From NCBI RefSeq assembly GCF_006345805.1, contig NW_021832195.1, forward strand, positions 1-31,507: a DNA stretch of 31,507 bases, given 5' to 3'. The number at the start of each line of letters is the position of its first letter. The first letter of the stretch is position 1. Of the stretch, positions 6,838 to 29,447 are shown piece by piece. This stretch comes from Octopus sinensis. Lineage: Eukaryota. Below the pieces are notes generated by a model. It made no database searches. It was not told where the DNA came from and worked only from the letters and a program-made list of their open reading frames with translations. The position numbers were made by a program, and so were the translations under genes.

Positions 6838-6999
6838 GTATATACGACGGGCTTTCAGTTTCCGTCTACCAACTCCACTCACAAGGCGTTGGTCGGCCCG
6901 AGGCTATAGTAGAAGACACTTGTCCAAGATGCCACGCAGTGGAACTGAACCCGGAACCATGTGGTTGGTAAAAGCAAGCTACTTACCACATAGCCACTC
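6586..6999 (-). mobile_element. SINE family B with internal (CA)n
   Basis: Colinear reverse-complement match to 15730-16143. Confidence 0.9.
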
Positions 7000-7319: not shown

Positions 7320-8625
7320 GTGGATATCCCCTCAGCGCTATCCACACAGCCCAGTCGTTGCCCGTCCGTCGTTGCCTCTCACCTACCACACCTCCACCCT
7401 GACCCTCCAACCGACCTTTCCGGCGACTCCATCCGACCCCTCCACCTCGCACATCTTCTCCAACTTATTCCTTCCCTCTTTGAAACGAGCCCACAACCTG
7501 CGTGACTTCCTGGTCCACAGTTTCTTCCCTAACCCCACCACCCAGCTTGCTTCGTGTCCCTGCTCCCGCTCACACTGCCATACTTGCCCCTACCTCTCCA
7601 ACACCACCATCCTCACCTGCACCCATCATTGTCCTTATCATATCACCGATTCCTTTATCTGCACATCTAACAACGTCATTTACTGCATCTCCTGCTCTTT
7701 CTGCTCTTCTCATCGGTTAAACGGGACGCCGCTTGGATAGCCGGTTCGTGGAGCACCCTCGAGACATCAGACTCAGCAATGACATCCTCGTCTCCGGTTA
7801 TTCACTACAACACCTATCTGTGTTGAGATTTGTCTTTACACAGGGTCCATCTGGACTCCCACCTTCGCCGTGAACAGGTATTTTTTATCTTGTCCACGAT
7901 CTTTTGCTTCACATGGGCTCAACTCCCTTGCTCTCTTCTCTTCATCGGACACCTACTTCCTCTCTTCACTCCTACCACCAACTCTATTTATACCACCCCA
8001 CCCTACCCCCATGCATCCACCCCACACCCACATCTTCATCCATCTCACATCACCAAACCCCAACCACACACCACCCCACATCGCCCCACACTCCATACCC
8101 TACCCACACACCACAGTCCATATCACCACACCACCACATCACACCACCCCACACCACTCAACACATACACTAGCGCTGACCACTTTCCAGCACCCATTCC
8201 ACCATCATCCGCACAACCACACAAATCATCTACACACTCACACGTTACAGACGCATACACTTACACACGCATACCTCCACACACGTCAAAGATACTAGCC
8301 TCCATCCACACACACACGCACTTAAAAATTCTCACATACACACACGCACACGCACCTTCGTTTTGGGATGACCAAAACTTTATTATCTTTCCTTCTTTCA
8401 ACCTCTTCTGTCAAACCTTTTTCTAATATGTCACCAAGCTTGACCGCTAAATCCACAAGTTTTTTTTTTATTCTCTCTATTTATTTTCCCTTATTCCTTT
8501 CTGCTGAAGAGCGTAGGCTCGAAACGTAAAAGACTTTCTCACTTTCCCGAGTGTCAAATTAATACACTTGCTTGCTGTTCACACGCTTGTCTTTGTCTTT
8601 TGTTTATATATAAATTTCAACTGTG
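7320..8625 (+). mobile_element. 5'-truncated Penelope-like element 3' end: Cys-linker, GIY-YIG endonuclease remnant, CAC-rich UTR, pLTR
   Basis: KRAHNLRDFLVHS, CSRSHCHTC Cys linker (Neptune-like), FICTSNNVIYCISCSFC, then shifted frame IG*TGRRLDSRFVEHPRDI and ..SHGLN. Followed by a hammerhead-like motif at 8497-8532. Confidence 0.88.
8497..8532 (+). ncRNA. Hammerhead-like motif, core CUGCUGA
   Basis: CTTT-CTGCTGA-A-GAGC GTAG GCTC-GAAACGTA-AAAG, downstream of the PLE endonuclease. Confidence 0.6.
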
Positions 8626-8748
8626 TGTGTGTGTATTATTCCTAGACAAGAATATTGTTCAGTTCTATGTTTTAAGAGATGAGGAATTATGTACATTATT
8701 TACATTATTTACATTTGACGGATATTTGTCCTCATCTTGTTTGTTGTT

Positions 8749-8794
8749 AACACAACATTTCAGCTGATATACCCTCCAGCCTTCATCAGGTGTC
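8749..8794 (-). ncRNA. Minimal hammerhead motif (CpG-decayed copy)
   Basis: GACAC-CTGATGA-A-GGCTG..CAGCT-GAAATGTT-GTGTT. The sister copy at 9234-9278 (+) has a broken core (CTGGAGA...GAAT). Confidence 0.7.
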
Positions 8795-8930
8795 TGGGGG
8801 AAATTTCAAATCTGGGTTTCTCATTCCTAAGGTAACCACTACGCCATATGCCCGTGGGCATATGGCGTAGTGGTTATGAGCACGAGGTACTAACCCCAAG
8901 ATTCCGAGTTCGATTCCAGGCGGAGACCTG

Positions 8931-8942
8931 AATAATAATACT

Positions 8943-8990
<48 letters not shown>

Positions 8991-9003
8991 GATGATGATG
9001 ATG

Positions 9004-9093
<90 letters not shown>

Positions 9094-9122
9094 TTAATAT
9101 AATAATAATAATATTAATAATA

Positions 9123-9160
<38 letters not shown>

Positions 9161-9185
9161 TAATAATAATAATAACAACAACAAC
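8931..9185. repeat. (AAT)n/(GAT)n/(AAC)n microsatellite inside the element
   Basis: Directly visible. Confidence 0.95.
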
Positions 9186-9379
9186 ATCGAAAATACCTTA
9201 GGAATGCGAACCCAGGTTCGAAATCTCCCCCAAGACACCTGGAGAAGCCTGGAGGGTATATCAGCAGAATGCTGTGTTAACAACAAACAAGATGAGGACA
9301 AATATCCGTCAATTGTAAATAATGTAAATAATGTACATAAGAATATTGTTGACAGTGACTTTTGGCCAGCAAAGCCATT

Positions 9380-11173: not shown

Positions 11174-11572
11174 GGATCTTTTCGGTTTGAACGGCAGTTT
11201 TTCTAGCGGTGTCATGAAATTGTCACCCATAATTATGACCCTAGCATCGATCTATTGCATTAGGGTTAGGGGTGGGAGGAAGGGTATCTTTTTCCTTCAC
11301 AAATGTAAATAAACCCAATCTGTTTCTTAAACGAGGGAAATATTCATACGGCATAGAATGTTTTTTTTTTACCTCAATGGACGTAATTGATTGGTTGAAA
11401 TTGCAGAAATTGAAGAAGAAAAACAACAAATATCTAACAAACTATAGAATTTTCTCAATAAAGCCAAGAGAAGAAGATGTTTTATAAAAACATTCTACCA
11501 GTATACGAAGTTTAAAATTTTTTAATTACCTAGAAATTATGTTAAAAACTGCCGTTCAAACCGAAAAGATCC
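11174..11572. mobile_element. MITE with 28-bp TIRs and 8-bp TSD (Merlin- or hAT-type)
   Basis: TIR GGATCTTTTCGGTTTGAACGGCAGTTTT at both ends; TSD TAAGGAAT at 11166-11173 and 11573-11580. Confidence 0.93.
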
Positions 11573-15003: not shown

Positions 15004-15430
15004 AGATCTTTTCGGTTTGACCGGCAGTTTTTAACATAATTTCTAGGTAACTAAAAAATTTTAAACTTCGTATACTGGTAGAATGTCTTTATAAAACATT
15101 TTTTTCTCTTGGCTTTATTGAGAAAATTCTATTGTTTGTAAGATATTTGTTGTTTTTTCTTCAATATCTGCAATTTCAACCAATCATTGACGTCTATTGA
15201 GGTAAAAAAAAACATTCTATGCCATATGAATATGTCCCTCGTTTAAGAAACAGATTAGGTTTATTTACATTTGTGAAGAAAAAAGATACCCTTCTCCCCA
15301 CCCCTAACCCTAACTAACCCTAACCCTAAAACAGATTGAAATGCAATAGATCGATTCTAGGGTCATTATTATGGATGACAATTTCATATGACACCGCTAG
15401 AAAAAGCTGCCGTTCAAACCGAAAATATCC
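15004..15430. mobile_element. MITE, second copy in opposite orientation
   Basis: Same TIRs; interior is the reverse complement of 11174-11572; TSD GCGAGGCG/GTGAGGCG at 14996-15003 and 15431-15438. Confidence 0.93.
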
Positions 15431-15729: not shown

Positions 15730-16143
15730 AGGCGCAGGGGTGGCTGTGTGGTAAGTAGCTTGTTTACCAACCACATGGTTCCGGGTGCAGTCCCACTGCG
15801 TGGCATCCTGGGCAAGTGTCTTCTACTATAGCCTCGGGCCGACCAAAGCCTTGTGAGTGGATTTGGTAGACGGAAACTGAAAGAAGCCCGTCGTATATAT
15901 GTATATATATATATATATATGCGTGTGTGTGTTTGTGTGTCTGTGTTTGTCCCCCTAATATTGCTTGACAACCGATGCTGGTGTGTTTATGTCCCCGTTA
16001 CTTAGCGGTTCGGCAAAAGAGACCGATAGAATAAGTACTGGGCTTACAAAAGAATAAGTCCCAGGGTCGATTTGCTCGACTAAAGGCGGTGCTCCAGCAT
16101 GGCCGCAGTCAAATGACTGAAACAAGTAAAAGAGAGTAAAGAG
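15730..16143 (+). mobile_element. SINE family B, full length (tRNA head, CORE-like block, internal TA/TG microsatellite)
   Basis: A-box TGGCTGTGTGG, degenerate B-box GGTGCAGTCCC, CORE-like TGGGCAAGTGTC, GAGTAAA tail repeats, candidate TSD TATACTAT at 15722-15729 and 16144-16151. Confidence 0.9.
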
Positions 16144-18669: not shown

Positions 18670-20967
18670 CGGTCGAAGCACGAAATCTAAAGAAAGGACA
18701 AGCGTTGAGACTAAAACATATCTTAATGACGAACCTGAAGTACAAAGTATATATACACCTTGCCACTAAAGAAAGGGAAAAGTGAGAGGCCCTCGCTAAA
18801 GTGGAGAACTTAATGAAACAATTAAAAGAACTACTCCGTCGTGAATGTAACTCCGTATGGAACCAGGTGCGTACAACACTTTGAAGAGAAACTAACATGG
18901 ACGTTACAACTACCATACAACCACCCAACAACTAAACAGTTTGACATGACTGAATCGATTGATGGGGTCTCTATGAATGACAAACCCGTAGATGATGACC
19001 AACTAACAAGAAACGTAGAGTGTACGGAGGAGTACAACTGGACACAGATGAACTCGCTGCCTTAGAACTCCCCCCAAAGTTCGCCACATATAATAAGGTT
19101 AGCAAGATATCAATACTATCAGACATTGAGAAATGCTTCACCAAACTTAGATGGAGAACACACTTTAACTGCAACCAAAATCCTGACATTCATGACATAT
19201 CTGACAATAACCATTCCATACGTTGTTTCTATGATAAACGTGACATATCATTTGACATGAAAAGGGTCTGCCCTACCAACTTACCCTTCAACAAAAGAGT
19301 ATGCATGCCACCCTATGCTGACGCTGCTTTAGAAGCAAAGTTTATCCTTACTAAGTCCAAACTCCTGTCAGCTTTCTCTGATTACACCCAAAGGCATAAA
19401 CAAAAACGAACAAAAAATAAGACCCATGATCTTGACACCAAAATTAATAAAGGCTTTAACAAATTAAAAAACCGTATAAAAAATAGATTGTATGCTTCCC
19501 AACTGACAAATCAGGTAGAATGTCTGTTGACAACCTATCTAATTATATTTCGAACATGCAACCACACATCAGAGACATGAGACAAACAACAACTCTCGAG
19601 TACATTGAAAACGAAAAAGTCCTTAATGCTCAGATGGAGATGTAGAGTATCATTCTCCAGTCTGAGAAACGCACAGCGAACACTTTCATGACCCCCAACA
19701 ATGAAATCCCACCCCTATATGGCCTTCGAAAAGATCATAAGAGCCACATGCATCATATACTTGGGCCATCTACCCGACCTGTTTGTGGTGCCAACAATGC
19801 TAACAACCACAAAATAGCATATTTTTTCTCACAATTCCTACGACCCTTAATAGAGTTATCTGCGGATGTATGTGATAGTACTGAAGACCTCCTTAGCAGG
19901 ATCCGCGAATGCAACAACACATGTGACCCCAGTGACCATATCGTAGGTAGCATGGATGTGGTATCCCTATATCCTTCCATTGATGTAGACTTTGCTGTCG
20001 AAAAATGTATAAAGATGATTAGTGAGAGTAATATGATATTTAAAAATGTGGACGTATATGAACTAGGGCTCTTCCTGGCCCTTAATAGTACCGATGAGTA
20101 TCTGTCACACAACAATCTTCTTCATGCTTGTCCCACCCGTAACAAACAAAGTAGACCACCTACCATTACCCCAGCATACAAAAAGACCCACTGTGAACGC
20201 TGGCAGGGCTGGATGAAGCCAGACTACCCACCTTCAGATGCACACGACATCAGAACTACCATCGCACATGCTATCGGTGTCAGCCTTAGAACTACACTTA
20301 AAACTCATATTTTTAAGTTCAACAACAAATTGTATAAACAGACGAAAGGCGGTGCTATTGGAGTAGGGATCACCGGTGATGTTGCAAACCTCTTCATGGT
20401 ATGGTGAGACAGACAGTTTGAACACTGCCTAGCGACCCATAACATCCACTTAGCTATGTACTCTCGATACGTTGACGACATTAACCTTGTCGTGAAATGT
20501 AATAATAATACAGACACAGAGATTGACTCTCTACTAAATGAAGAACAGGTGGTGACAGCTATACTACACATAGCTGACTCTATTCATAGCAGTATAAAAG
20601 TTACCGTGGACTACCCCTCTAAACACCCCAGTAATAGATTACCTGTCCTAGATACTGAGCTGTGGATGGAAAATACTATGATTAACGGAACTGTTAAACC
20701 CTGTATACTCCATTCACACTATTGTAAACCTATGGCTAATCCACTGGTAATCCGTAATGACTCAGCGATGTCGAGTACTACCAAGCTCAACATCCTGGTG
20801 GCAGACTTTGTTAGAGTAATGAGGAATGTATTTCCACTATGCCAACCACAAGAACGACAACAACACATCCAGCACTTCATATTCCGAATGCAACGCTCCG
20901 GATACACACAATATGACAGAATCAGAGTGTAGAAAGTGCGAAAACAAGATTCGAAAACTTAGCCGAG
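18670..20967 (+). pseudogene. Penelope-like retroelement reverse transcriptase ORF, disrupted and 3'-truncated
   Basis: LELPPKFA, PTDKSG, LYGLRKDHK..RPVCGA, GSMDVVSLYPSI (motif A), YKQTKGGAIG (motif B), YSRYVDDI (motif C), LPVLD, HYCKPM, QRSGY. Frameshift at ~19486, in-frame TAG 19643 and TGA 20405, frameshift at ~20930. The 5' boundary is uncertain. Confidence 0.92.
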
Positions 20968-23348: not shown

Positions 23349-24640
23349 AAACATTACTTTATATAATTAACTGTTTTGAGCAAGCATGTAATGACTTTGG
23401 CTTAGCTATCAGCCTTAAGAAGACCAACATCATGGGTCAGGCTACATCGGACATCCCAATCATACATATTGGAGACCACAGATTACAAGAGGTGGAGAAG
23501 TTTACCTATCTTGGCTCTACCGTCACCTACAACCTATCCGTTGACGCTGAGCTCAATATACGCATTGGCAAGGCAGCTGCTGCGATGGCCCAACTCTCCA
23601 AACGGGCTGGGACAACAATAAGCTGACCAAGACCACGAAAATGAAGATCTACCAGGCATGTGTACTTAGCACTCTACTGTATGGAAGTGAGACTTGGACG
23701 CTATACACACGCCAAGAGCGTCGCCTAAACATCTTTCACCTGCGCTGCCTCCGGAAAATCCTCCGCATCAAATGGCAGAATCATATCCCTAACAAAGATG
23801 TCCTCAGGCAAGCAGGAATACCAAGCATGTTTGCACTCTTCACACAAAGACGTATGAGATGGCTTGGGCATGTTAGCCGTATGAAAGATGGCAGAACCCC
23901 CAAGGACATACTCTACGGAGAGCTTGCAAGGGGTACTAGGTCTGTGGGTAGACCGTTCTTACGATACAAGGATATTTGCAAAAGGGACATGAAGGCCTGC
24001 AACATCAATATTAGCAACTGGGAAGCAGTTGCCAGCAACCGTGGAGATTGGCGACGTACCGTAAATGAGGGAATACAAAGGAGTGACAGAGAGAGAGAGG
24101 AGAAATGGAAAGACAAGAAAAGACGTCAACAAGAAACTATGGCACTACAACCAGCCAGGAACAGTCTTCGCTACATTTGCGGCACCTGCCAGAGGGAGTG
24201 TTTGTCCAGGATAGGACTACACAGCCACAGCAGGATATGTATTAGGACAGGAAATGTAAAAGCCGGACTAGATTATTTTATGCGCAACTCCATTGTCTCC
24301 CGAGACAAAAAGGATGCCAACAACTTTATATAATTAAGGTTCAGCAAAAAAAAATTTGCTTTACCACATACCGAAATTTTAGAAATAGCAGCCAAAAGAT
24401 TTAGCTATTTCTTCTACTATAAGAATAATCTCCCAGACAAATTCTTACAGTAGAAGAAATAGCTAAATTTTTTGGCTGCTATTTTTAAAACTTCGGTATG
24501 TGGTAAAGCAAATTGTTTTTTGCTGAACCCTAATTATATAAAGTTATGTTTAAATTTACCGTAAATGGTCCTTTTACATACTGAACACCTACTTGGTAAA
24601 ATTGTTAATTACTAATTAATTAATTAATTTTGCCCTTTAT
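23349..24640. mobile_element. Hairpin fold-back element interrupted by the RTE insertion
   Basis: Arms are (23349-23370 plus 24338-24426) and 24441-24551, with a 14-nt loop. The extension 24552-24635 matches the reverse complement of 4360-4425. Confidence 0.85.
23371..24322 (+). mobile_element. 5'-truncated RTE-clade LINE
   Basis: FGLAISLKKT, VEKFTYLGS, RIGKAAAAM, YQACVLSTLLYGSETW, RMRWLGHVSRM, C-terminal CGTC..C..RIGLHSH. One frameshift at ~23605. Perfect 15-bp TSD ACTTTATATAATTAA at 23356-23370 and 24323-24337. Confidence 0.95.
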
Positions 24641-28032: not shown

Positions 28033-28431
28033 GAGTGACAGTTGTGTTCCACAATTGACAAACGTAGCGAAATTGTTAGATTTGTCCTGCAAGTATCTTC
28101 CGATGGGCTCCAGCAGGCTGACTCTAACGAAATGTCTTTTGACTTAGATGTTACGATCTGATGAATGGGCCACTTTAGTTAGCATTTATCCTGCTTTTTT
28201 TCAACAAGATATTTTAGTCAGCTGGTGTGCGGCCTGGACATTATAGTTTCGTGGGCACATCAACGATTCATAACTTTGACCGCATCTAAAGGAATAATTG
28301 TTTGGCTATTTTTGACTATTTTCATTGAATTCTATTGTTACATTTATGAATCTGTGTTGCAAAATTCCTGATGTGAAACTGTATACATTATTTACATTTG
28401 ACAGATATTTGTCCTCAACTTCTTTGTTGTT

Positions 28432-28477
28432 AACACAACGTTTCGGCTGATATACCCTCCAGCCTTCATCAGGTGTC
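28432..28477 (-). ncRNA. Intact minimal type-I hammerhead ribozyme motif
   Basis: GACAC-CTGATGA-A-GGCTG GAGGGTATAT CAGCC-GAAACGTT-GTGTT, palindrome AACGTT. Confidence 0.82.
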
Positions 28478-28564
28478 ATGGGAAAATTTCGAACTTGGGT
28501 CCTCATTCCTAAGTTATTTTTCGATGTTGTTGTTGTTGTTATTATTATCATTATTATTATTATT

Positions 28565-28946
28565 GAGTGAGAGAGCAGTGCATGCCATCAAAGTGACACT
28601 GGGATAAAATATACAAAGCCCAGTATACCCATCATGACTACCCGTCTGATAAGGGTACACCAGGTACATGCATCACAAACATATGTGCGCGACATGGTAA
28701 TCTCATATCAAGATAAACAACGCATGACCTTGCAGGTCCTTGAATAAAGATTGTTTAAGGATGTTGAACGAAACACCCATGTTTCCAAAGAATTTCATTC
28801 AACACACGCCTATGATGCTTCCCCACTACTTCTGCTCGTGATCAGAGATGCACGTAACGCCAGCCACTAAGGGACATGCTCAACTGGTTAAGGTTAAACA
28901 ACTGACAAGCAAATCTGTGGTATTGAGTAGAATATTTGCTGTAGCC

Positions 28947-28947
<1 letters not shown>
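28565..28947. mobile_element. Unclassified ~380-bp insertion nested in the (ATT)n body
   Basis: Complex sequence flanked on both sides by (ATT)n and absent from the equivalent arms at 8931-9190 and 29085-29200. Confidence 0.65.
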
Positions 28948-28986
<39 letters not shown>

Positions 28987-29098
28987 GAGGTACTGCCTGG
29001 GATCGAACTCGGAATCTTGGGGTTCGTAGCCCTCGTTCTTAACTACTACGCCATATGTCCACGGACTCATGGCAGGGACCTGAACAATAATAATAATG

Positions 29099-29162
<64 letters not shown>

Positions 29163-29245
29163 CAATAATAAAAAATAACAACAACAACAACAACAACAAC
29201 GAAAAATACGTTAGGAATGAGAACCCAGGTTCGAAATTTCCCCAA

Positions 29246-29291
29246 GACACCTGATGAAGGCTTGAGGGTATATCAGCCGAAACGTTGTGTT
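29246..29291 (+). ncRNA. Minimal type-I hammerhead ribozyme motif
   Basis: GACAC-CTGATGA-A-GGCT..AGCC-GAAACGTT-GTGTT. Confidence 0.8.
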
Positions 29292-29447
29292 AACAACAAA
29301 CAAGATGAGGACAAATATCTGTCAAATGTAAATAATGTAAATAATGTACACAATTCCTCATCTCTTAAATATAGAGCTCTAAAACTATGTGTTGAAACAG
29401 ATATTGTTGTATTTCGGGATGGTCATTCTTTTTTTTTTTTGCCAAAT

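What the first reader, a model, noticed from the sequence alone, without database searches (positions are those of the whole stretch)
8833..8876. Both loci are head-to-head dimers fused at the tRNA 5' end with the same 2-nt spacer
Seen: at 8833-8876 a perfect 21-bp palindrome TAACCACTACGCCATATGCCC-GT-GGGCATATGGCGTAGTGGTTA, and at 29050-29073 GCCATATGTCC-AC-GGACTCATGGC (AC is the reverse complement of GT). In each locus one arm keeps the full head and the other has an internal deletion right after the first 11-21 nt. The 8.7-kb dimer is bounded by one 12-bp TSD, so it inserted as a unit. Inference: either the mobile form is a palindromic dimer with divergent promoters, or cDNA snaps back reproducibly at the 5' end. 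The deletions would relieve cruciform instability.
Basis: partly seen in the sequence, partly recalled or inferred. Interest (0 to 1): 0.82.

Follow-up and report, generated by a model that had tools for sequence, protein, structure and literature searches.

The report
Head-to-head Penelope ends with tRNA head
The two palindromes are real back-to-back copies of the end repeat of a Penelope-type jumping gene, an arrangement already known for that family; this one also carries a tRNA-like head, and its copies suggest that each insertion is likely made from two separately started DNA copies that meet at a built-in hairpin.

Summary
Observation largely confirmed. 8833-8876 is a perfect 21-bp palindrome around GT; 29050-29073 is a 9/11 match around AC. 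The first dimer is 679 bp long (not 8.7 kb) and has a 12-bp TSD; the second has no clean TSD. The exact junction occurs 127 times in the genome.

The unit is not a stand-alone SINE. It is the pseudo-LTR (pLTR) of a Penelope-like element: it follows the RT/endonuclease ORF, holds a hammerhead-like motif and encodes the ORF's first 54 codons. The spacer is the loop of an element-encoded TGCCC-AC-GGGCA hairpin. Head-to-head pLTRs, 5' palindromes, a one-sided 30-40-bp tail and ~10-bp TSDs are published Penelope hallmarks.

Two things go beyond what my searches found in print. The pLTR carries a tRNA-Arg-like head with A and B boxes. The copies also follow strict rules: 51 of 55 two-armed loci have one tail and none has two; the tail sits on either arm; 36 of 51 have TSDs. 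This favours twin priming from the two known RT start sites over plain snap-back or a fixed mobile dimer. Pol III transcription and ribozyme activity are untested. New variant of a known kind.

The parts
8648..8659 (+). Locus 1, left copy of the 12-bp target-site duplication
8660..8688 (-). Locus 1 left arm: ~29-nt Penelope 'tail', on this arm only
   Evidence: it continues into the ORF in long copies
8689..8832 (-). Locus 1 left arm: pLTR body (start of the ORF) with a hammerhead-like motif at about 8749-8794 (GAAAC changed to GAAAT)
8833..8853 (-). Locus 1 left arm: first 21 nt of the head; the rest of the head and the AAT tract are deleted
8854..8855 (.). 2-nt spacer GT (AC on the other strand): loop of the element-encoded TGCCC-AC-GGGCA hairpin
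8856..8930 (+). Locus 1 right arm: full tRNA-Arg-like head, A box at 8863, B box at 8906
8931..9184 (+). Locus 1 right arm: (AAT)n/(AAC)n tract
9185..9338 (+). Locus 1 right arm: pLTR body without tail; hammerhead core damaged (about 9234-9278)
9339..9350 (+). Locus 1, right copy of the target-site duplication
28384..28527 (-). Locus 2 left arm: pLTR body without tail; intact hammerhead-like core at about 28432-28477
28564..28948 (.). A different repeat inserted into the AAT tract of the locus 2 left arm (found in 16 of 226 fetched loci)
28985..29060 (-). Locus 2 left arm: full tRNA-Arg-like head
29061..29062 (.). 2-nt spacer AC
29063..29082 (+). Locus 2 right arm: 11 nt of head joined to the last ~9 nt of the head; the middle is deleted
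29196..29351 (+). Locus 2 right arm: pLTR body; hammerhead-like motif 29246-29291; an ATG at 29217 opens a 54-codon frame matching the N-terminus of a full-length Penelope-type protein
29352..29378 (+). Locus 2 right arm: tail, on this arm only

Best explanation
Both loci are head-to-head pairs of the pseudo-LTR of a Penelope-like retrotransposon, likely made by twin priming, in which the two ends of one staggered target cut would each prime a cDNA and the two cDNAs would join at the hairpin in front of the tRNA-like head. SHOWN: the unit follows the ORF stop after ~24 nt; TGCCC-AC-GGGCA is part of ORF-bearing copies; body plus tail are the first 54 codons of the ORF; dimers carry one tail, never two, and ~10-13-bp TSDs; the tail falls on either arm. 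INFERRED: (1) The element's RT/endonuclease cuts an AT-rich target with an ~11-nt stagger. (2) One 3' end primes at the outer RT start site (tailed arm) and the other at the inner site ~30 nt upstream (untailed arm), probably on the same RNA. (3) Short templates begin just 5' of the head, probably as Pol III transcripts from the A/B boxes; an RT stop at the hairpin is the alternative. (4) Both cDNAs then end in the nearly self-complementary TGCCC-GT-GGGCA and anneal, or one folds back briefly and is handed to the other, giving the fixed junction in either orientation. (5) The ~250-bp perfect palindrome is almost always broken by a deletion in one arm, during synthesis or afterwards.
For: Family: 25 of 29 ORF-end loci run on into this unit (read by eye). 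RT motifs GSPLS and YVDD plus a C-terminal CVYSIPC..YKGET nuclease are present. Homologs carry PF00078. The window frame 29217-29372 matches residues 18-34 of full-length P0005 at 12/17 identities, E 6e-6. The tail continues into the ORF in L209, L210, L214, L215 and L218. Tail rule: 51 one, 4 none, 0 both in 55 two-armed loci out of 122 examined; P about 2e-6 if arms were independent. The tail is on the inverted arm in 10 of 18 ORF-bearing two-armed rows, 9 of 15 after removing duplicated segments. Tail on AC arm 12, on GT arm 10, among 36 GT/AC loci. In L208 and L213 the two arms stop at different depths of the ORF. Arms of one locus share 15 non-majority variants against about 4.8 expected, 0 of 2000 permutations (30 loci). 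57 of 70 intact heads have no ORF end upstream, so the 5' boundary is strongly preferred. No run of four T lies in one natural pLTR or in the pLTR-to-ORF stretch checked. Literature: a Penelope-clade protein cuts and extends both strands, starts at two sites that bracket the tail, and is predicted to be a dimer (PMC11167929).
Against: No transcript, RT product or ribozyme activity was seen. An intact head follows AC twice as often as GT (155 vs 77), so purely symmetric annealing is not the whole story and some fold-back is likely. The AT and GC spacers expected from mismatch repair of an annealed G.T/T.G duplex are not clearly in excess: AT 9 of 50 is also explained by CpG decay, GC is 1 of 50. 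Shared variants could come from gene conversion, and the two window loci share none in the body. Pfam found no family on the ORF fragments themselves. 15 of 51 dimers, including locus 2, show no TSD.
Confidence: 0.6

Rival explanations
1. Snap-back with nuclease resolution: one cDNA is primed at the tail, folds back at the built-in hairpin and copies itself; the endonuclease cuts the copy ~30 nt short and joins it to the second target end; deletions then hit either arm.
For: The hairpin is element-encoded and folds in prediction (-11.6 kcal/mol for 51 nt). Intact heads follow AC 155 times and GT 77 times. The arms share variants. Self-priming was proposed for such palindromes (PMC3846280) and nuclease resolution for the tail (PMC8557442).
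Against: It predicts the tail on the sense-templated arm. The tail is on the inverted arm in 9 of 15 distinct ORF-bearing copies and on the GT arm in 10 of 22. Rescuing it needs about half of all templates to come from inverted arms plus later loss of kilobases from the tailed arm.
Confidence: 0.25
2. The mobile form is a preformed palindromic dimer, transcribed and copied as a unit.
For: L039 and L040, 143 kb apart, share the same deleted junction and variants at different flanks. TSDs bound whole dimers.
Against: 28 mapped jumps fall into 23 sizes; the repeats are 0-1-nt mismatch artefacts and one 22-nt pair. Tailed arm, deleted arm and spacer orientation vary between loci. Long ORF-bearing insertions show the same inverted geometry with variable junctions. 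Occasional re-copying of a dimer is compatible with the best explanation.
Confidence: 0.1
3. The palindromes are assembly or library chimeras, or two independent insertions that met by chance.
For: No long read or listed contig spanned a window locus. Hairpins can mislead assembly.
Against: 127 exact junctions with a fixed loop. TSDs in 36 of 51 against a shuffled mean of 0.67, maximum 3. The arms differ at ~9% of sites. The one-tail rule. Short-read contigs of four runs from four studies pile up on 8832-8867 (suggestive only, since partly laid contigs add to that depth).
Confidence: 0.03

Closest known systems
Penelope/Poseidon-clade PLEs: Adineta vaga Pen1-6 (PMC3846280, passages) and Anolis Poseidon PAc (PMC11167929, parts 1-2 of 4)
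   Same: [quoted passage not shown]
   Different: Here the pLTR carries a tRNA-like head with A/B boxes and an (AAT)n tract. Solo head-to-head pLTR pairs outnumber ORF-linked heads (57 vs 13 of 70). The junction is fixed to a 12-nt hairpin. TSDs are ~10-13 bp.
tRNA-derived SINEs, including the octopus OK/OR1/OR2 families (Ohshima and Okada 1994; seen only as a citation) and tRNA-CORE/Deu/Ceph SINEs (PMC4758252, PMC8967140, passages)
   Same: tRNA-like 5' head with A and B boxes, short length, high copy number (1081 exact 26-nt heads).
   Different: The 3' part comes from a Penelope ORF start, not a LINE 3' end. There is no poly(A) or simple-repeat 3' end. The head is built into the autonomous element, and copies are mostly inverted pairs. 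Identity with OK/OR1/OR2 could not be tested.
TRIMp3 elements Helenus, Cassandra and Ajax (PMC10886601, passages)
   Same: A small-RNA-derived, presumed Pol III promoter inside a terminal repeat of a retrotransposon.
   Different: Those are non-autonomous LTR elements with PBS/PPT and 4-5-bp TSDs; this is a Penelope pLTR that is also part of the ORF-bearing element.
Non-LTR retrozymes (bioRxiv 10.64898/2026.07.22.740005, part 1 of 5) and minimal PLE hammerheads (PMC4209133, passages)
   Same: Non-coding, PLE-derived units with a type I hammerhead. The motif here has the extra base at 9.1, G10.1-C11.1 and a palindromic 15.2-16.2.
   Different: Retrozymes are head-to-tail tandem arrays; these are head-to-head pairs with TSDs and a tRNA-like head.
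LINE-1 twin priming 5' inversions (recalled, no call)
   Same: Both target ends prime cDNA, and the products join by microhomology into an inversion.
   Different: In L1 the second primer lands at a variable internal site and the arms do not overlap; here both arms start at two fixed sites ~30 nt apart and duplicate the same sequence.

Membership tests
EN+ Penelope-like element (Penelope/Poseidon type) | ORF with PLE-type RT followed by a C-terminal GIY-YIG-type nuclease | tested here: met
   Motifs GSPLS, YVDD and CVYSIPC..YKGET in linked copies; 14 homologs at 28-68% identity, 12 of them with PF00078. Pfam did not hit the short fragments; the nuclease label rests on recalled motifs.
EN+ Penelope-like element (Penelope/Poseidon type) | pLTR downstream of the ORF that also contains the ORF's first codons | tested here: met
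EN+ Penelope-like element (Penelope/Poseidon type) | Inverted 5' arm and a 30-40-bp tail at one end only | tested here: met
   51 one tail, 4 none, 0 both of 55; ORF-bearing copies likewise
EN+ Penelope-like element (Penelope/Poseidon type) | Short TSDs | tested here: met
   36 of 51 against a null of 0.67; absent at locus 2
EN+ Penelope-like element (Penelope/Poseidon type) | Minimal type I hammerhead motif in the pLTR | tested here: met
   Sequence pattern only: helix I GACAC/GTGTT, CUGAWGA, extra A, helix II, GAAAC-GU-U; 34 matches in fetched loci, compared with the description in PMC4209133. Rfam models did not call it.
EN+ Penelope-like element (Penelope/Poseidon type) | Placement in the Penelope/Poseidon clade by RT phylogeny | not tested
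   No named reference RTs were available; no tree was built
tRNA-derived SINE | Head derived from a tRNA, with A and B boxes | tested here: met
   Four heads score 59.5-71.5 against this genome's tRNA-Arg(ACG), 52.5-62.5 against the best of 20 other tRNAs, and at most 45 when shuffled. Only part of the tRNA set was compared.
tRNA-derived SINE | Transcription by RNA polymerase III | not testable with these tools
   Only contigs were on offer; they cannot show a start site or strand
tRNA-derived SINE | 3' end shared with a LINE, ending in poly(A) or a simple repeat | tested here: not met
   The 3' part is the start of a Penelope ORF and ends at two fixed sites
tRNA-derived SINE | A separate non-autonomous element, distinct from its partner | tested here: not met
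   The head is an integral part of ORF-bearing copies
Non-LTR retrozyme | Head-to-tail tandem repeats, each with a hammerhead | tested here: not met
   Both window loci and 41 of 70 sampled heads are inverted pairs

The most novel reading that the evidence does not exclude
A Penelope element captured a tRNA-Arg gene into its pLTR and so gained a Pol III promoter that makes short, SINE-like RNAs. Its dimeric RT copies one such RNA twice at once, from the two tail-bracketing start sites and the two ends of the target cut, and the two cDNAs anneal at a 12-nt hairpin. The genome's thousands of dimers would then be an in vivo record of the Penelope integration mechanism, and the element a Penelope counterpart of TRIMp3 or SINEs.
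Probability: 0.4. Interest if true: 0.7.

Novelty: new variant of a known kind. Interest (0 to 1): 0.48.

Why it matters
How Penelope-like elements make their inverted arms and one-sided tail is an open question; the papers read call for it to be worked out. This family offers many short, uniform insertions whose statistics separate the models: one tail in 51 of 55 and never two, the tail on either arm even where template polarity is known, and TSDs at both arm ends. That gives a clear prediction for the existing in vitro system. It also suggests that part of what is annotated as tRNA-SINE in such genomes is Penelope pLTR. The head-to-head arrangement and junction palindrome themselves are known Penelope features, which limits the surprise.

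Tried and rejected
ARAGORN and Rfam found no tRNA or hammerhead in the window or in other copies; all Rfam hits were below gathering score, mostly in microsatellites. Pfam found nothing meaningful on five ORF fragments.

An early idea that the tail always sits on the AC arm, true of both window loci, failed genome-wide: 12 vs 10. Mismatch-repair products at the spacer were not informative, because AT is also common in ORF-linked copies through CpG decay.

Reads: one search gave no listed piece across the whole locus, and the flank at 8634-8669 was barely covered in X1; neither can be read as presence or absence. A second laying on the junction, with two possible RNA runs, did not complete, so expression is untested.

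One 'inverted ORF' class call (L179) was a microsatellite false hit and was counted as 'nothing found'. One search used a wrong frame and was not repeated, since answers the same point. Earlier scan findings: none.

Paper searches that found no description of a tRNA-headed pLTR or of twin priming in Penelope elements. Repbase, Dfam, SINEBase, Ohshima and Okada 1994 and Albertin 2015 (not held) could not be seen, and the family may be catalogued there. Supplements were searched only for PMC13282606 (one short file, no match to the head); its repeat library was not visible.

Full report
1. The observation. Window 8833-8876 is a perfect 21-bp palindrome around GT, and 29050-29073 is an 11-bp arm pair (9 of 11) around AC. 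Each arm leads outward into the same ~270-nt unit: a 75-nt head, an (AAT)n tract and a ~170-nt body. Locus 1 spans 8660-9338 (679 bp) between two copies of a 12-mer at 8648-8659 and 9339-9350. Locus 2 spans about 28384-29378, has no clean TSD, and carries another repeat in the left arm's AAT tract. In both loci the arm that follows AC has the deleted head and ~30 extra bases at its outer end. The genome is 2.72 Gb; an octopus-like host is my guess from size and repeat texture, not a tested fact.

2. It is a family trait. The 26-nt junction pattern occurs at 127 places, control 0. In the first 50, the spacer is GT/AC in 36, AT in 9 and something else in 5. An exact 26-nt head occurs 1081 times. 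I examined 70 of the first 71 listed, all on contig C1; one was dropped because it was already L004. Of these, 41 have an inverted piece of the element within 400 nt upstream, 13 have the end of an ORF directly upstream (3 have both), 1 has an inverted ORF piece, and 18 show nothing, several with a short remnant of the stem. So most intact heads are in inverted pairs, with many different deletions.

3. The unit is a Penelope pLTR. The ORF upstream of some heads encodes RT motifs (GSPLS, YVDD) and a C-terminal CVYSIPC..YKGET nuclease region. Its 14 homologs are 28-68% identical and 12 carry PF00078; Pfam did not hit my fragments directly. Of 29 further loci picked only by this protein, 25 continue into the unit (23 with head, 2 body only), 3 do not and 1 was not displayed (by eye). 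The native sequence is stop codon, ~24 nt, then TGCCC-AC-GGGCA with the head starting at GGGCA. The spacer is therefore the loop of an element-encoded hairpin (predicted fold). At the other end, an ATG at window 29217 opens 54 codons through body and tail that match the N-terminus of a full-length homolog. In L209, L210, L214, L215 and L218 the tail runs on into the ORF. The body holds a pattern fitting the minimal hammerhead described in PMC4209133 (passages); Rfam did not call it, and activity is untested. PMC3846280 (passages) describes pLTRs containing the ORF's first codons, an inverted head-to-head arm, 18- and 38-bp palindromes at the pLTR 5' end, an optional 31-bp tail and 8-10-bp TSDs. 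PMC8557442 (passages) says the tail is often at one end only, and at either end.

4. The head. It has A- and B-box-like motifs at tRNA spacing. Four natural heads align to this genome's tRNA-Arg(ACG) (found) with scores of 59.5-71.5. They score 52.5-62.5 against the best of 20 other tRNAs and at most 45 when shuffled against those 20. Only part of the tRNA set was compared, so Arg is the best tested parent, not a proven one. It no longer passes ARAGORN or Rfam. No four-T run lies in one natural pLTR or the pLTR-to-ORF stretch checked. 57 of 70 heads lack upstream ORF sequence, far more than random 5' truncation would give. Pol III transcription is the likely reason; a strong RT stop at the hairpin is not excluded.

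5. Rules that bear on mechanism. (a) Of 122 loci examined, 55 have both arm ends: 51 have one tail, 4 none, 0 two; P about 2e-6 under independence. (b) 36 of those 51 have a TSD abutting both arm ends, against a shuffled mean of 0.67 and maximum of 3. (c) The tail is on the AC arm in 12 and the GT arm in 10 of 36 loci. (d) Among 69 ORF-bearing loci, 18 have both arms: tail on the inverted arm in 10, the direct arm in 7, neither in 1; 9, 5 and 1 after removing duplicated segments. (e) Arms of the same locus share 15 non-majority, non-CpG variants in 2754 sites against about 4.8 expected, 0 of 2000 permutations; gene conversion could contribute, and the window loci share none in the body. (f) An intact head follows AC 155 times and GT 77 times. 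(g) Both heads are intact in 5 of 50 palindromic loci, whereas 14 of 16 ORF-linked heads are intact; 13 of 29 ORF loci were dropped because the head start did not match, and that set is biased to well-preserved copies. (h) 28 mapped jumps fall into 23 sizes, mostly with 0-3 nt of microhomology; L039 and L040 share one junction at different flanks.

6. Reading. PMC11167929 (parts 1-2 of 4) shows that a Penelope-clade protein cuts and extends both target strands, starts RT at two internal sites that bracket the tail, and is predicted to be a dimer; it saw no strand difference in start site. If each end of one staggered cut primes from one of the two sites, rules a-e follow: one tail, on either arm, both ends at the TSD, arms from one template. 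Long RNAs give arms truncated at different depths (L208, L213). Short RNAs end at the hairpin, where the two cDNA ends are nearly self-complementary and fix the junction. Rule f suggests that in some events the longer cDNA folds back briefly before joining a shorter partner. Plain snap-back fails c and d unless extra steps are added. A dedicated mobile dimer fails h, though dimers are sometimes re-copied. Whether they arise during synthesis, by later cruciform loss, or partly by under-assembly of perfect palindromes is open. All of section 6 is inference.

7. Artefact check. Short-read contigs from four runs of four studies give summed depths of about 15,000-240,000 on 8832-8867 against 0-26 on the flank at 8598-8615. 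This suggests the junction is in independent data, but no listed piece spans the locus and partly laid contigs add to the depth. The TSDs and arm divergence are the stronger argument. A second laying, including possible RNA runs, did not complete.

8. Novelty. Member of the EN+ Penelope-like elements by every sequence feature tested; clade placement was not tested. It would work like a SINE if Pol III transcription is real, but it fails two SINE criteria. The closest parallel for a tRNA inside a terminal repeat is Helenus/TRIMp3 (PMC10886601, passages). Ten searches of the held library found no tRNA-headed pLTR and no twin-priming account for Penelope elements. Repbase, Dfam, SINEBase and the 1994 octopus SINE paper were out of reach, so the family may already be catalogued. 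Other papers seen only in passages: PMC13282606, PMC4758252, PMC8967140; the retrozyme preprint, part 1 of 5. Verdict: real, a new variant of a known kind, interest 0.48.

Noticed in passing
window 28564-28948: A second repeat (~385 bp here, ~460 bp elsewhere) sits inside the AAT tract; it occurs in 16 of 226 fetched loci, several times directly after the same tract (L035, L041, L044, L086). Possibly the 3' end of a TAA-targeting LINE such as R4/Dong (recalled, not tested).
   Followed up: partly
window 8490-8545: A different minimal hammerhead-like motif (CTGAAGA..GAAACGTA) about 110 bp left of locus 1, very deep in short-read contigs; probably the pLTR of another Penelope family.
   Followed up: partly
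window 4505, 26556: Further CTGANGA..GAAA patterns that may be hammerheads of other families.
   Followed up: no
window 11419-11571 and 15005-15157: Inverted pair of a 153-bp repeat, 95% alike, 3.4 kb apart; found in 6 of 226 fetched loci.
   Followed up: partly
window 6852-6972 and 15763-15883: Inverted pair of a very common repeat with a tRNA-like end (52 of 226 fetched loci); likely an ordinary SINE.
   Followed up: partly
window 24384-24483: A 100-nt near-perfect hairpin (sub-threshold Rfam miRNA hit); could be a MITE or another inverted junction.
   Followed up: no
window 18999-20932 and 23551-24333: Stop-free frames of 174-260 codons outside microsatellites; not examined.
   Followed up: no
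L039:1440-1580 and L040:1440-1580: Two dimers 143 kb apart share the same doubly deleted inverted arm and variants but have different flanks: a dimer copied as a unit, or two insertions from one source.
   Followed up: partly
G000:C2:3121889-3162218 (L203-L206): A tandem array of more than 50 tRNA-Arg(ACG) genes, mostly at ~206-bp spacing.
   Followed up: no
L082-L110: ORF-linked pLTRs also carry frequent small internal deletions in the body (only 3 of 24 nearly complete in head and body), so the family is deletion-prone in general.
   Followed up: partly
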